Assembly: GCA_001189075.1 (NCBI GenBank)
Contig: LFCN01000006.1
Coordinates: 524,866-588,865, forward strand
Length of the DNA: 64,000 nucleotides
Origin: Parcubacteria bacterium C7867-004
Lineage (GTDB): Bacteria > Patescibacteriota > Minisyncoccia > Phycocordibacterales > Phycocordibacteraceae
Direction of reading: 5' to 3'
In this document: positions 34,804-42,080 of the stretch, one piece after another
How positions within the stretch are numbered: position 1 is the first letter of the stretch
Layout: the number at the start of each line of letters is the position of its first letter
Position numbers and translations under genes: made by a program
Notes under the pieces: model-generated
The model's database searches: none
What the model was told of the DNA's origin: nothing
What the model saw: the letters and a program-made list of their open reading frames with translations, nothing else

Positions 34804-36228
34804 TTATCCCGCTCGCTCGAGTACCCGCACCATTCCCGTATTCGCATCTACCTCGAGCAGATCGCCGTCCTTGAACACTTGTGTGGCGAACTTAGTGCCG
34901 ATGATGCAGGGCTTCTTCATCTCGCGAGACACGATGGCTGCATGCGAGAGCATGCCGCCGATATCGGTGACTATCGCACAGGAGCGCTGCATGAGCAGGA
35001 CGAAATCGGGCGTCGTCATCGTGGTGACGAGCACGTCGCCCTGTTCCATCTTCCCGAACTCGTCGAGGTTCATGATCACCTTCGCCCGCCCCTGGACATT
35101 TCCCTTGTTCGCGATCTGTCCCTTGAGTTCGGTGGTGCCGCTGCCTACCTTCGGTATGAAGGTCTCAAGATACCGGATGTCTTCCGGGTCATCGATGAAA
35201 TGTGCCTTTCCTTCTGCATCTGCTCGTACCGCCCATTTGCGATCAGCACGCTTCTCAATGCGCGCCTGGAGCTCTTCGGGCGTAAGCGCCCCTGTAAGGC
35301 CCGCGCGTATCTCGTCATGATTGAGCGACATAAGCTCGCGATAGGAAACGCCGAACCGGTCGGCGACGCGCAGCAGAAACGGCCGCGCATGGAGATGCAG
35401 CATGGAGACGTACTCAGCGCAGCCCTGCTTTCCGTACCCGATAGCGGTGAGGCAGCGCAGCAGATGACGTACGTTGTCGGAGACCGGAGGCTGCTCGTGC
35501 GCCGCCTCATCGAGCGAGACGTTGCTGATCATATCCAGGAGCCGCGGCAGCGTAAGCTCTTCCCCGATCCAGTTCGCCATCTCGATCCAGCCGTAGCGCT
35601 TCCGGTGATCCTCGAGCTTGGCGAAAAGCTCGCTATCAGCTTCAACTTCTGCGAGCGAGCGGCCATTGATCTCCCGCGCGAGCTGCTTGAGCTCTTCTTG
35701 CTGCCGATACAGAGGCGTATCGATCACGATGAGGCCCGCAACCACGTCCGGCGCTATCGACTCTTTCACGACCTGCTCGAGGAAGACCTCCTCGAGCACA
35801 TACGCTATCTGGCTCGCCGACGCGCTCCAGTAGAACATGAGGCGGCGTACCACCGATACGAGCCGCTCGAAGTTCTCGAGGGTCGGCTCATACGCCGGAA
35901 CCTCGAGCGCGAAATTGAGTGCGTCCTGGCAGGCGTTTCTGGCTGCGTGCTCGTACTTCTCGAAGAACGGGTCGTGCCGCTCCACCAAGTCGCGCATCAC
36001 CTCCCGCAGCCGGTTGCGTTCCGGTACGTTATAGAAGACGTGTCCGCCGCACAGAGCGAACATGCTGCACTCGCGCATATCGAGGCCAACCGATTCCGCA
36101 AACTCTTTCCGATACCAGTCCTGCCAGAACCATGCAGCGAAGAGGTCCTCTTTCCAGAGGCCGAGATACGCCCAGTCTTCGGGCTTGAATCCTGCGAGTT
36201 CCGGAGAATTGAATGCGTGGTCGCTCAT
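34804..36228 (-). CDS. PEP-utilizing enzyme mobile (phosphohistidine swivel) domain protein, paralogue A (474 aa)
   Basis: C-terminal [44 protein letters not shown] is the PEP-utilizer His-domain signature; N-terminal roughly 380 aa helical domain of unknown function. Confidence 0.8.
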   Translation of the reverse strand: [474 protein letters not shown]

Positions 36229-37247
36229 AGTTTCCGTACTATACCCTTCTCCGCATCCACTTCAACCATATCGCCATCCTTGAATACCTTTGTGGCGATC
36301 TTCGCGCCGATCACGCACGGCTTCTTGAGCTCCCGCGCGACGATCGCGGCGTGACACATGATCCCGCCCTCATCAGTTACGAATGCGGCGGCGCGATGCA
36401 TCGCAGAAAGGAAATCAGGCGTCGTCATCGGCGAGACGAGGATATCTCCGTCAGTCACGTTGGTCATCTGCATCTTGTTCTTCACGATGCGAACTCGCCC
36501 GGTAACCATTCCCTTCTGGGCAACCTGTCCCTTCACTTCCGAGACCTGATCGACTGCATCGAATAATCCTTCGAACTCATATTTCGGGTGCTCCTTAGCA
36601 AACTGCTCGAGCGACATGACGAATCGTTCTTTTCCATCAACTGATACCACCCCGTTCATCCTTGCTTCTAGCGTCTCGGATGACGGAAGATGAGGGAACT
36701 CCTCGCACAGCACCAAGTTCGCATGTTCGCGCTTTCCTCCGAGCGCGACGATGCAGTCCTTTATGTAGACATCGTTGCGCGCAAAGAATTCGTCAGTAGT
36801 GCGAAGCGTCATCACGAGCTTCATGACGTCCTCCGGCGTGCGCGTATCGGTGCCTGGGTAGTACCACATGGAGAAAAGCGGAGCGGCTACTTTTATGAGC
36901 TCGACATATGCTTCAAGCCGTTCGATGTCAGCCGTCGGTCCGGCAGCCCAGAATCCTTGTATCTGCTCTAGAAGCGGTTGGTACTCCGCTATAACCGACT
37001 CTATGAATGCTGTACCGCCCTTATTGAGCTCGAGCAGCGTATCGAGCATCCATTCGATCGCTTCGGTATGCTCCCAGATTTGCAGGTTCTCCTCAGTAAC
37101 GAAGAAGATCTCGAATACGGGGAATGGTGAAGTCAGTCCAAGCTTCGGGAGAAGATGGTCAAGAAATCCTCTTGCCCAGTATTCCTCGAGCGCGAGCGTG
37201 AAGTCGCGTTCGTAGGGCTTCGTAAATACGATCTTCTTGTCACTCAT
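36225..37247 (-). CDS. PEP-utilizing enzyme mobile domain protein, paralogue B (340 aa)
   Basis: C-terminal [44 protein letters not shown]; 4-nt ATGA overlap with neighbours on both sides. Confidence 0.8.
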   Translation of the reverse strand: [340 protein letters not shown]

Positions 37248-41600: not shown

Positions 41601-42080
41601 AGTGAAGAGCGATGCCCAGCACTCCTGCACTTTCTCAAGCACGGTGGCTTCGGTGGTGTTGAGGTACGTATCGAGCTGTCCGGCCCATGCGGCGGTCGCT
41701 CCGTCCTCTGCAGTCGCTGATGAGCGCACCGCGACGAATTCGGTATCGAGTTTCTTGAATGCCGCCATGACCTCGATCTTGATGTCTTCCGGCATGGCAG
41801 CCTGAAGAATGAGTCCTTGGATCATCTCCGACGCGTGCTCCACTGTATGCATCTCCTCGTGCGATACCGTTGCAAGGATCGCATCTATCTCAACATTCAA
41901 GTGCGTCTCCTCGATGAACCGCTCGAAGGTGTCGGCGAGAATGACATACCCGGGAGGGACTGGGATGCCCGCCTGTGTCATCTCTCCTAGGGACGCGCCT
42001 TTCCCACCGGCTATCGGCGCATCGTTCCTCCCTATCCGCCCGAACTCGCGGATGAGCTCCATATGCCTGCACGATAGCAT
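38655..42080 (-). CDS. multidomain PEP synthase/pyruvate phosphate dikinase-like protein (1141 aa): N-terminal ATP-grasp nucleotide-binding domain + swivel His domain + helical domain + second swivel His domain
   Basis: N-terminus [21 protein letters not shown] matches the PPDK/PpsA nucleotide-binding domain. Internal swivel [44 protein letters not shown] and C-terminal swivel [44 protein letters not shown]. No PEP/pyruvate-binding TIM-barrel domain seen. Confidence 0.8.
   Translation of the reverse strand: [1141 protein letters not shown]

What the first reader, a model, noticed from the sequence alone, without database searches (positions are those of the whole stretch)
34804..42080. Operon of four paralogous phosphohistidine 'swivel'-domain proteins fed by a single ATP-grasp module: candidate novel multi-substrate dikinase-type phosphotransfer system
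- Four co-directional, translationally coupled genes (4-nt ATGA overlaps or 10-nt gaps) each end in a PEP-utilizing-enzyme mobile His domain (GG[MI][LTM][SC]HAAI[VA][SA]RE[ML]K.PC[IV][IV]G.K).
- The first gene (1141 aa) also carries the only PPDK/PpsA-type ATP-grasp nucleotide-binding domain ([10 protein letters not shown]) and a second, internal swivel domain, giving 5 swivel domains and 1 ATP-binding module.
- No PEP/pyruvate-binding TIM-barrel domain is present. Each swivel domain is instead preceded by a different roughly 300-400 aa helical domain of unknown function.
- By analogy with PEP synthase, rifampin phosphotransferase and phenylphosphate synthase (ATP-grasp pyrophosphorylates a swivel His, which then phosphorylates a substrate held by a third domain), this looks like one ATP-charging module serving several paralogous substrate-binding modules.
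- The phosphoryl-acceptor substrates would be unknown. I do not recognise a described system with this arrangement.
Basis: partly seen in the sequence, partly recalled or inferred. Interest (0 to 1): 0.8.

Follow-up and report, generated by a model that had tools for sequence, protein, structure and literature searches.

The report
Multi-headed dikinase operon in a Parcubacterium
Four adjacent genes of a tiny-genome (CPR) bacterium encode one ATP-binding module and five phosphate-carrying modules, each tied to its own rifampin-kinase-like binding domain; this looks like an unstudied multi-substrate kinase battery that databases wrongly label PEP synthase.

Summary
Minus-strand genes at 38655-42080, 37244-38644, 36225-37247 and 34804-36228 carry one PpsA-type ATP-grasp domain and five PEP-utiliser swivel domains. 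All five keep the catalytic His, and there is no PEP/pyruvate TIM barrel.

One correction: the domains preceding the swivels are not unrelated. They are divergent paralogues of one superfamily, with a short form (~235 aa, two copies) and a long form (~360 aa, three copies). The long form's only specific structural match is the rifampin-binding domain of rifampin phosphotransferase.

The source is Parcubacteria bacterium C7867-004. The same building blocks recur across CPR bacteria and DPANN archaea:
- single proteins with one ATP-grasp and up to 5 modules;
- arrays of up to 12 single-module genes;
- stand-alone ATP-grasp genes beside such arrays.

Orthologous modules are fused in one genome and separate in another, and module content differs between syntenic relatives.

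The best reading is a multiplexed version of the RPH / PpsAB / HpeHI small-molecule dikinases, in which one ATP-grasp charges many swivel-acceptor modules. Trans-charging and the acceptors are inferred, not shown. I found no paper describing it, and public records name all four genes PEP synthase or pyruvate, water dikinase. I rate it a new variant of a known kind, interest about 0.7.

The parts
38655..42080 (-). Gene 1 (1141 aa; NCBI model starts at M7): ATP-grasp, long X-domain, swivel, short X-domain, swivel.
   Evidence: ORF. Pfam PF01326 and two PF00391 hits. 100% match to 'pyruvate, water dikinase [Parcubacteria bacterium C7867-004]'.
41091..42014 (-). PpsA-type ATP-grasp nucleotide-binding domain (g1 aa 23-330). 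It is the only one in the operon and in the window.
   Evidence: PF01326 E 2.6e-97. GGKG, [10 protein letters not shown], AGQxDTYLN, DIEW and QSRPIT align with RPH 5hv6 and PpsA 8a8e. No other ATP-grasp hit in the window.
40011..41075 (-). Acceptor-binding X-domain, long family B (g1 aa 336-690).
   Evidence: 24% identity over 323 aa to the g4 N-domain, E 3e-18. Family c1 HMM E 2e-80.
39681..40010 (-). Swivel phosphohistidine domain 1 (g1 aa 691-800). Catalytic His752 codon at 39825-39827.
   Evidence: PF00391. Alignment and His position.
38976..39680 (-). Acceptor-binding X-domain, short family A (g1 aa 801-1035).
   Evidence: Clusters with the g3 N-domain in family c0. c0 HMM E 4e-72.
38658..38975 (-). 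Swivel phosphohistidine domain 2 (g1 aa 1036-1141). His1099 codon at 38784-38786.
   Evidence: PF00391 at 1064-1135. His position.
37244..38644 (-). Gene 2 (466 aa from M23; the longest ORF extends to 38710). It has a divergent long family-B X-domain (aa 1-360, 37565-38644) and a swivel (His425 codon at 37370-37372). No ATP-grasp.
   Evidence: ORF and junction. PF00391 E 2.6e-26. The N-domain matches the family c1 profile at E 7.7e-14. NCBI model of 466 aa.
36225..37247 (-). Gene 3 (340 aa). Short family-A X-domain (aa 1-235, 36543-37247) and swivel (His299 codon at 36351-36353). ATGA overlap with gene 2.
   Evidence: AF2 model pLDDT 95.4. Invariant R14 and R196, near-invariant R149 and E183 in 42 family members. 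81% ortholog in L003.
34804..36228 (-). Gene 4 (474 aa). Long family-B X-domain (aa 1-365, 35134-36228) and swivel (His429 codon at 34942-34944). ATGA overlap with gene 3.
34773..34796 (.). GC-rich hairpin between the gene 4 stop and the stop of the convergent 117-aa gene. Probable terminator marking the end of the operon.
   Evidence: Terminator-like site with a 9-bp stem and T-run on the + strand. Sequence read.

Best explanation
The operon encodes a multiplexed small-molecule dikinase of the rifampin-phosphotransferase / phenylphosphate-synthase / HpeHI type.

Proposed steps:
1. Inferred from family chemistry: the single PpsA-like ATP-grasp domain of gene 1 binds ATP and transfers the beta-phosphate to the conserved His of a swivel domain, releasing AMP and Pi.
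2. Inferred: it does this for its own two swivel domains in cis, and for the swivel domains of genes 2-4 in trans. This is how the separate ATP-grasp subunits PpsB, CreI and HpeI act on PpsA, CreH and HpeH.
3. Inferred: each phospho-swivel swings back onto the X-domain that precedes it. This domain is a divergent relative of the RPH rifampin-binding domain with conserved Arg/Glu residues. The swivel phosphorylates whatever acceptor is held there.
4. Because the five X-domains are deeply diverged (25% identity or less), the five modules probably have different acceptors. These are most plausibly hydroxyl-bearing small molecules taken up by this metabolically dependent CPR bacterium, phosphorylated either to trap or salvage them or to inactivate them.

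Shown here: the domain inventory, the intact catalytic motifs, the homology of the X-domains to each other, the structural match to RPH, and the fusion/fission pattern across genomes.

Not shown: any phosphotransfer, the trans reaction, and the identity of the acceptors.
For: - Domain content and intact catalytic His and ATP-grasp motifs.
- No PEP/pyruvate TIM barrel. All scores fall below the NCBIfam cut-offs for PpsA, PPDK, RPH and PigC/RedH.
- X-domains form one superfamily. g1-mid1 matches the g4 N-domain at E 3e-18. The g2 N-domain matches the family c1 profile at 7.7e-14. Family A against family B by hhalign gives 90.9% probability, with the C-terminal E...R motif aligning.
- In RPH, Arg666 and Glu667 of the binding domain are essential for the second phosphotransfer (PMC4844700). 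The X-domains carry invariant or near-invariant Arg and Glu: R14, R149, E183, R196 in family A, and K/R267, E306, R327 in family B.
- Split ATP-grasp and (binding + swivel) dikinases are experimentally established in HpeHI, CreHI and PpsAB (PMC12167813).
- Comparative genomics. All 120 top homologues have one ATP-grasp plus 1-4 X-swivel repeats. Loci from CPR and DPANN genomes show arrays of up to 12 X-swivel genes, a 2715-aa protein with 5 modules, and stand-alone ATP-grasp ORFs beside arrays. Best-matching modules are fused in one genome and separate in another. A syntenic relative has 2 + 6 modules.
Against: - There is no biochemical evidence for any member of this family.
- I could not superpose models, so I could not test whether the conserved Arg/Glu residues correspond to RPH Arg666/Glu667/Lys670.
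- Some arrays have no ATP-grasp gene within the DNA fetched, for example L004, L016 and L023.
- Some relatives have two or more X-domains per swivel, so the one-X-one-swivel logic is not universal.
- No transporter or pathway gene is consistently linked, so nothing points to the substrates.
Confidence: 0.6

Rival explanations
1. Regulatory phosphohistidine system. As in mycobacterial VadK, a PPDK-derived autophosphorylating kinase, the ATP-grasp would charge the swivel His residues. The X-domains would be protein-interaction or sensor domains that pass on a signal rather than phosphorylate metabolites.
For: - VadK shows that a PPDK relative can become a regulatory His kinase (PMC13400623).
- A His_Phos_1 protein lies beside the operon. 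Its best, sub-threshold NCBIfam match is the phosphohistidine phosphatase SixA, and homologues sit next to arrays in L009, L011 and L018.
- No substrate-related genes are linked to the arrays.
Against: - The long X-domain resembles the small-molecule-binding domain of RPH.
- The X-domains carry conserved Arg/Glu residues of the kind RPH uses for phosphotransfer to its substrate.
- Up to 12 or more modules per genome, with fast turnover, is hard to reconcile with signalling in genomes of about 0.7 Mb.
- The SixA match is only 30 bits against a cut-off of 74.5.
Confidence: 0.12
2. PigC/RedH/HapC-like ATP-dependent ligases. Each module would phosphorylate an oxygen to activate it for a condensation, so the array would be a biosynthetic assembly rather than a set of kinases.
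For: - PigC and RedH share the ATP-grasp, substrate-domain, C-terminal-swivel order.
- They appear among the NCBIfam hits: g1 scores 368-372 bits, and g2 and g4 swivel regions score 74-93 bits.
- The HapC mechanism paper is in the library.
Against: [quoted passage not shown]
- No biosynthetic genes lie nearby.
- From general knowledge, CPR genomes are poor in secondary metabolism.
Confidence: 0.1
3. The X-swivel proteins are not charged by the gene 1 ATP-grasp. They would be charged by another donor, for example PEP through an Enzyme I or PpsA-type domain encoded elsewhere, and the co-location would be incidental.
For: - Some arrays lack an ATP-grasp gene in the DNA fetched (L004, L016, L023).
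- Swivel domains of the PTS accept phosphate from PEP (general knowledge).
Against: - All 120 closest homologues fuse one ATP-grasp to the modules.
- The genes are translationally coupled here.
- Stand-alone ATP-grasp genes flank many arrays.
- No PF02896 domain is found in the four proteins or their neighbours.
Confidence: 0.05
4. The public annotation is right: these are PEP synthase / pyruvate, water dikinase subunits that make PEP from pyruvate.
For: - The NCBI names.
- The ATP-grasp and swivel domains are closest to PpsA: NF005057 at 552.7 bits, and PDB 8a8e.
Against: - No PEP/pyruvate-binding TIM barrel (PF02896) is present.
- Scores are below both PpsA equivalog cut-offs: 552.7 against 598, and 525.9 against 739.75.
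- The X-domains are mostly helical and the long form is RPH-like.
- Five different modules are not needed for one substrate.
Confidence: 0.03
5. The four genes are fragments of a decayed ppsA/ppdK locus, that is, pseudogenes.
For: None beyond the tandem arrangement of related pieces.
Against: - All four are intact ORFs with complete swivel domains and the catalytic His.
- g3 is 81% identical to its ortholog in a syntenic genome.
- g3 has full-length relatives at seven loci, as a separate ORF in six of them.
- Confident AF2 folds were obtained.
Confidence: 0.01

Closest known systems
Rifampin phosphotransferase (RPH, e.g. Listeria RPH-Lm, PDB 5hv1/5fbs) and the wider RPH superfamily of small-molecule dikinases
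   Same: - The first ~800 aa of gene 1 have the RPH order: ATP-grasp, substrate-binding domain, C-terminal swivel His domain.
- ATP-grasp motifs are conserved.
- The long X-domain's only specific structural match is the RPH rifampin-binding domain.
- The X-domains carry conserved Arg/Glu residues, as RPH does with Arg666/Glu667.
   Different: - There are five swivel-acceptor modules per ATP-grasp instead of one. Three of them are on separate polypeptides.
- The X-domains are shorter (235-365 aa against about 430 aa) and have no sequence-level similarity to the RIF-binding domain outside the last ~70 residues.
- The score is far below the RPH equivalog cut-off: 381 against 999.
- The ATP-grasp and swivel are closer to PpsA than to RPH.
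Two-component small-molecule dikinases: phenylphosphate synthase PpsAB, 4-methylbenzyl phosphate synthase CreHI, hydroxyphenylethanone kinase HpeHI
   Same: - An ATP-grasp on one polypeptide acts on a separate (substrate-binding + swivel) polypeptide that lacks its own ATP site.
- Genes 2-4 have the HpeH-type layout (PMC12167813).
- Relatives in other CPR and DPANN genomes even have a stand-alone ATP-grasp ORF of 313-345 aa, like HpeI.
   Different: - The known systems are 1:1 pairs dedicated to one class of phenolic substrate in aromatic catabolism.
- Here one ATP-grasp accompanies 5 modules, and 8 to 12 or more in relatives, drawn from many diverged X families. The ATP-grasp is itself fused to two modules.
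- The hosts are CPR and DPANN organisms, which are not expected to have aromatic catabolism (general knowledge).
PEP synthase (PpsA) / pyruvate phosphate dikinase (PPDK)
   Same: - The ATP-grasp and swivel domains are homologous, with best hits to PpsA.
- The motifs [10 protein letters not shown] and [13 protein letters not shown] are nearly identical to those of PpsA (the PpsA motifs are from my own recollection).
- A His-mediated swivelling mechanism is presumed.
   Different: - There is no C-terminal PEP/pyruvate TIM barrel.
- The domain order differs: the swivel follows the acceptor domain.
- There are multiple swivels.
- It is not a PEP synthase, despite the public annotation.
Prodigiosin ligases PigC/RedH/HapC and the regulatory kinase VadK (Rv1127c)
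   Same: These are further examples of the ATP-grasp + swivel chassis recruited to non-PEP functions.
   Different: PigC-type enzymes are single-module and lie in biosynthetic clusters. I did not examine VadK's domain content. Neither is reported as a multi-module array in the papers I consulted.

Membership tests
PEP synthase (pyruvate, water dikinase; the public annotation) | N-terminal PPDK_N ATP-grasp domain (PF01326) | tested here: met
   Present in g1 only (E 2.6e-97). Absent from g2, g3 and g4.
PEP synthase (pyruvate, water dikinase; the public annotation) | C-terminal PEP/pyruvate-binding TIM-barrel domain (PF02896) | tested here: not met
   No PF02896 hit in any of the four proteins at E <= 0.1. 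AF2 models of the non-swivel domains are helical bundles with small beta elements.
PEP synthase (pyruvate, water dikinase; the public annotation) | Score above the NCBIfam equivalog cut-offs (NF005057, TIGR01418) | tested here: not met
   g1 scores 552.7 against 598, and 525.9 against 739.75. g2-g4 score 102-125 bits.
Rifampin phosphotransferase (RPH) | Domain order ATP-grasp, substrate-binding domain, C-terminal swivel His | tested here: met
   g1 residues 1-800 have this order. It is then repeated without an ATP-grasp four more times.
Rifampin phosphotransferase (RPH) | Substrate-binding domain with the RIF-BD fold | tested here: inconclusive
Rifampin phosphotransferase (RPH) | Catalytic Arg666-Glu667-Lys670 block and rifampin-contact residues. 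Score above NF041857 / NF000283 cut-offs. | tested here: not met
   Scores are 381 against 999, and 268 against 1700.
Two-component small-molecule dikinases (PpsAB / CreHI / HpeHI) | A (substrate-binding + swivel His) polypeptide without an ATP site, encoded beside an ATP-grasp component | tested here: met
   g2, g3 and g4 have this layout and are translationally coupled to g1. Stand-alone ATP-grasp ORFs flank arrays in 11 of the 43 fetched loci, among them L014, L021, L022, L024, L026, L028, L036 and L038.
Two-component small-molecule dikinases (PpsAB / CreHI / HpeHI) | One ATP-grasp component paired with one acceptor component | tested here: not met
   The ratio is 1 ATP-grasp to 5 swivel modules here. 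It is 1:8 in the P0013 locus and up to 12 modules in a row in L016.
Two-component small-molecule dikinases (PpsAB / CreHI / HpeHI) | ATP-dependent phosphorylation of a small-molecule acceptor, yielding AMP + Pi | not testable with these tools
   This requires enzyme assays.
Prodigiosin-type ligases (PigC/RedH) | Score above the NCBIfam equivalog cut-offs NF052631 / NF052632 | tested here: not met
   368.5 against 1300, and 372.3 against 1350.
PTS Enzyme I | Swivel His domain together with the HPr-binding N-terminal domain and PEP-binding TIM barrel | tested here: not met
   Only the swivel region matches (TIGR01417 at 31-80 bits against a cut-off of 341.7). No other EI domains are present.

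The most novel reading that the evidence does not exclude
CPR bacteria and DPANN archaea possess a previously unrecognised, modular phosphotransfer hub. A single ATP-grasp charger would serve a variable, rapidly exchanged repertoire of 2 to more than 12 phosphohistidine carrier-acceptor cassettes, whether fused or split. This would give these minimal-genome episymbionts a plug-and-play battery for phosphorylating many different scavenged or toxic small molecules. A SixA-like phosphohistidine phosphatase may act as a reset. In logic this would resemble the PTS (one energy-coupling module, many substrate-specific modules), but it would be ATP-driven and cytoplasmic.
Probability: 0.35. Interest if true: 0.85.

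Novelty: new variant of a known kind. Interest (0 to 1): 0.7.

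Why it matters
1. Annotation. All four genes here, and many of the closest relatives that carry a name, are labelled PEP synthase or pyruvate, water dikinase although the genes here lack the PEP/pyruvate domain. Gluconeogenesis calls in CPR and DPANN metabolic reconstructions that rest on these genes are likely to be wrong.
2. Enzymology. Known swivel-domain dikinases pair one ATP-grasp with one carrier His. A one-to-many arrangement, in cis and in trans, would be a new way to use this chassis. It is directly testable with four soluble proteins.
3. Biology of CPR and DPANN. These organisms keep only about 700 genes, yet some devote 7-20 kb to these arrays and exchange modules between close relatives. 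That implies an important, environment- or host-dependent function such as metabolite trapping, salvage or detoxification. This bears on the open question of how episymbionts live off their hosts.
4. New domains. The short X family has 810 clusters among 1.84 billion representative proteins and no structural homologue in the PDB.

Tried and rejected
- The search for related loci with the family A alignment failed because no stretch was conserved enough. I used the g3 protein instead.
- The AFDB Foldseek library was unavailable, so the models could not be compared with predicted structures such as HpeH, PpsA or PigC.
- Profile searches of both X families against PDB sequences gave only chance helical hits.
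- Conserved neighbours that might hint at substrates: none were found beyond weakly recurrent phosphatases.
- The promoter scan was at the level expected from shuffled sequence, and terminator-like sites were only modestly above it. Only the hairpin after gene 4 is worth noting.
- Literature searches for a description of multi-swivel proteins in CPR or DPANN found none. One resistome paper only counts 'rph' hits in CPR (PMC8651080). The giant-gene preprint mentions PPDK_N only in a domain list.
- Rejected readings: a degraded ppsA (the ORFs are intact and conserved), a true PEP synthase (no TIM barrel, scores below cut-offs), and the antisense 527-aa ORF (judged a shadow ORF, because the opposite strand encodes gene 4 with its Pfam swivel hit).

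Full report
**1. What is in the sequence**

The region holds four co-directional minus-strand genes.
- g1: 38655-42080, 1141 aa.
- g2: 37244-38644, 466 aa counted from M23. The longest ORF reaches 38710 and would overlap g1 by 56 nt. Starting at 38644 leaves a 10-nt gap and matches the NCBI model.
- g3: 36225-37247, 340 aa.
- g4: 34804-36228, 474 aa.

The g2/g3 and g3/g4 junctions are ATGA overlaps. An AT-rich stretch precedes g1. A GC-rich hairpin at 34773-34796 separates the g4 stop from a convergent 117-aa gene.

Pfam finds PPDK_N (PF01326) only in g1, residues 23-330, E 2.6e-97. The PEP-utiliser mobile domain (PF00391) occurs twice in g1 and once at the C-terminus of each of g2, g3 and g4. 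PF02896, the PEP/pyruvate TIM barrel, is absent.

The five swivel domains are 51-62% identical. All keep GG[IM]xxHAAI with the phospho-carrier His at g1 H752 and H1099, g2 H425, g3 H299 and g4 H429. The ATP-grasp keeps GGKG, [10 protein letters not shown], AGQxDTYLN, DIEW and QSRPIT in alignments with RPH (5hv6) and PpsA (8a8e).

No other member of the system lies elsewhere in the 64-kb window.

**2. The domains in front of the swivels**

These are not four unrelated domains.

BLASTP links g1 336-690 to g4 1-365 at 24% identity over 323 aa, E 3e-18.

I cut the inter-swivel segments out of the 120 best homologues of g1 and clustered them.
- g3 1-235 and g1 801-1035 fall in a short family of about 236 aa, which I call family A.
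- g4 N and g1-mid1 fall in a long family of about 375 aa, family B.
- g2 N matches the family B profile at E 7.7e-14.

Profile-profile comparison joins the two families. The probability is 90.9% (E 1.2e-6) over 101 N-terminal columns. A C-terminal E...R motif also aligns: g4 E306/R327 with g3 E183/R196. Further short and long families in other genomes are linked in the same network.

AF2 models built from these family alignments are confident: g4 N-domain pLDDT 93.9 and g3 N-domain 95.4. Both are mostly helical, with a small N-terminal beta-alpha-beta-beta unit and a C-terminal beta-hairpin. They are not TIM barrels.

Independent sequence support comes from NCBIfam alignments to RPH-like PRK06241 models, which run 30-70 residues upstream of the swivel into the X-domain.

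Conserved polar residues in family A are K10, [ST]13-R14-[DE]15, R149, D159, E183 and R196. In family B they are K/R267, E272, E306 and R327. In RPH, Arg666 and Glu667 of the binding domain are essential for the second phosphotransfer (PMC4844700). I could not superpose coordinates to test whether these residues are equivalent.

**3. Source and relatives**

g1 is identical to 'pyruvate, water dikinase [Parcubacteria bacterium C7867-004]' on a 686-kb contig. g2 to g4 are deposited as 'Phosphoenolpyruvate synthase' or 'pyruvate, water dikinase'.

Every one of the 120 closest homologues has one N-terminal ATP-grasp followed by (X + swivel) repeats. There are 3 repeats in 76 proteins, 2 in 27, 4 in 8 and 1 in 9. 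The named ones come from Patescibacteria, Woesearchaeota and other DPANN.

A scan of GTDB species genomes with g3 returned 41 loci. Most record titles name CPR lineages (Taylor-, Uhr-, Doudna-, Magasanik-, Parcubacteria; several are labelled Saccharibacteria) or DPANN lineages (Nanoarchaeota, Micrarchaeota, Norongarragalinales). Several metagenome bins are instead labelled Gammaproteobacteria, Methanosarcinales or Methylomirabilota.

An ORF and HMM scan of these loci shows the following.
- Runs of up to 12 consecutive X-swivel genes (L016), and 9 in each of L004 and L023.
- A 2715-aa Nanoarchaeota protein with an ATP-grasp and 5 modules, followed by two more module genes (L015).
- Stand-alone ATP-grasp ORFs of 313-345 aa beside arrays, in L008, L012, L014, L021, L022, L024, L026, L028, L036 and L038.

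The best matches of the window's modules are fused in some genomes and separate in others.
- g4 N best matches the first module of a 1994-aa protein.
- g1-mid1 best matches a stand-alone gene in L004.
- g3 N matches the second module of P0114.

This fusion/fission pattern is the main evidence that the ATP-grasp and the X-swivel modules work together.

The short X family is small and always tied to swivels. It has 810 clusters at E <= 1e-3 among 1.84 billion representatives. Its architectures include XA-SW, XA-XA-SW and GRASP-...-SW.

**4. Locus dynamics**

Two syntenic relatives keep the same neighbourhood, with mreB upstream and a holB-like gene downstream.

The P0013 contig has a 1148-aa g1 homologue followed by six swivel-ended genes.

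In L003 the flanking genes are conserved: mreB 85%, murA-like 75%, frr 65%, rseP 62% and holB 56%. Within the operon only g3 is conserved, at 81%. g1 is 45% identical, and g2 and g4 are replaced by different modules.

Module content therefore turns over faster than the surrounding genome. Elsewhere the genes sit in unrelated contexts, and no pathway or transporter gene is consistently linked.

**5. Mechanism**

The known relatives work in two steps. The ATP-grasp transfers the beta-phosphate of ATP to the swivel His, giving AMP and Pi. The swivel then carries it to a substrate held by a third domain.

RPH has all three domains on one chain (PMC4844700). PpsAB, CreHI and HpeHI split the ATP-grasp from the binding-plus-swivel component, and HpeH alone catalyses the second half-reaction (PMC12167813).

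The operon here looks like the same machine with the acceptor half multiplied. One ATP-grasp would charge five swivels, two in cis and three in trans. Each swivel would deliver phosphate to the acceptor bound by its own X-domain.

The deep divergence of the X-domains and the turnover of modules argue for different acceptors. These acceptors are unknown. By analogy they are likely to be poorly nucleophilic hydroxyl groups such as phenols, enols or hindered alcohols.

I put 0.6 on this mechanism. Everything beyond the domain anatomy and homology is inference.

**6. Rivals**

- A VadK-like regulatory phosphohistidine system, 0.12. The adjacent SixA-like gene is its best argument.
- PigC-like activating ligases, 0.10.
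- Charging by another donor, 0.05.
- A true PEP synthase, 0.03. This is contradicted by the missing TIM barrel and the sub-threshold scores.
- Pseudogene fragments, 0.01. This is refuted by intact, conserved ORFs.

**7. Comparison with what is known, and novelty**

The system belongs to the RPH-type small-molecule dikinase superfamily. It fails the membership tests for PpsA, RPH proper, PigC/RedH and EI. It departs from the two-component subfamily in stoichiometry (1:5 here, up to 1:12 or more), in having the ATP-grasp fused to modules, in its X-domain families and in its taxonomic range.

Five literature searches found no description of multi-swivel dikinases in CPR or DPANN. This is absence of evidence within the library that was searched.

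I classify it as a new variant of a known kind. My interest score is 0.7, for three reasons: the arrangement is unusual for this enzyme class, it is widespread in two poorly understood radiations, and it is systematically misannotated.

Noticed in passing
window 33639-34253 (+); also L009 10386-10997, L011 3246-3860, L018 3362-4063: A 204-aa histidine-phosphatase-superfamily protein (His_Phos_1) lies just downstream of the operon. Its best NCBIfam match is the phosphohistidine phosphatase SixA, at 30 bits against a cut-off of 74.5. Homologues of about 30% identity sit next to X-swivel arrays in three other loci. The syntenic P0013 locus has an LMWPc phosphatase at the same spot, whereas L003 has nothing there. 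It could be a reset or product phosphatase, or it could be coincidence.
   Followed up: partly
window 48000-58000 and 58063-63993: GC content drops from about 58% to about 40% over roughly 10 kb. This stretch carries large minus-strand ORFs of 516, 886 and 623 aa. A 1976-aa ORF follows and runs to the end of the window. It looks like a foreign island or large surface-protein genes.
   Followed up: no
window 43057-44112 (-) and 27095-28150 (-): There are two MreB-like genes, about 46-50% identical through their cross-matches in L003. Each has an 84-85% ortholog in the syntenic genome L003. Two actin-like paralogues is notable for a genome of about 0.7 Mb.
   Followed up: no
window 34771-36354 (+): A 527-aa ORF lies antisense to gene 4 and is longer than gene 4 itself. 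I did not scan it against Pfam or any other family library. I regard it as a shadow ORF of the GC-rich coding strand and a trap for gene callers.
   Followed up: no
L003 5851-12479 compared with window 34804-42080: In a syntenic relative the flanking genes are 56-85% identical. Within the operon only gene 3 is conserved, at 81%. Genes 2 and 4 are replaced by other modules. Cassette-like turnover is taking place at a fixed locus.
   Followed up: partly
L016 139-16842, L023, L004 4234-18186, L015 4145-14742: Some relatives carry extreme versions of the system. L016 has 12 consecutive single-module genes, which overlap the array in L023 on the same contig. L004 has 9 genes carrying 10 modules, on a 1.19-Mb chromosome, with no ATP-grasp gene in the fetched DNA. 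L015, from Nanoarchaeota, has a 2715-aa protein with an ATP-grasp and 5 modules.
   Followed up: partly
P0121-P0258 (relatives of the short X family): Some relatives have two or more X-domains per swivel: XA-XA-SW in 14 representatives and XB-XA-XA-XA-SW in one. The one-acceptor-domain-per-carrier rule is therefore not universal.
   Followed up: no
swivel domains: g1 aa 747-755 and 1094-1102, g2 420-428, g3 294-302, g4 424-432: The Thr two residues before the catalytic His is the regulatory phosphorylation site in PpsA and PPDK (the HpeHI paper notes a conserved regulatory Thr there; the exact position is from my own knowledge). It is kept in three swivels (TSH, TCH, TSH) and replaced by Met in g3 and Leu in g4.
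   Followed up: no
NCBI records KND47450-KND47452 and the g1 record: All four genes are deposited as 'pyruvate, water dikinase' or 'Phosphoenolpyruvate synthase'. JGI labels many relatives the same way, or as 'rifampicin phosphotransferase'. Such labels may inflate gluconeogenesis or resistance calls in CPR and DPANN surveys.
   Followed up: partly
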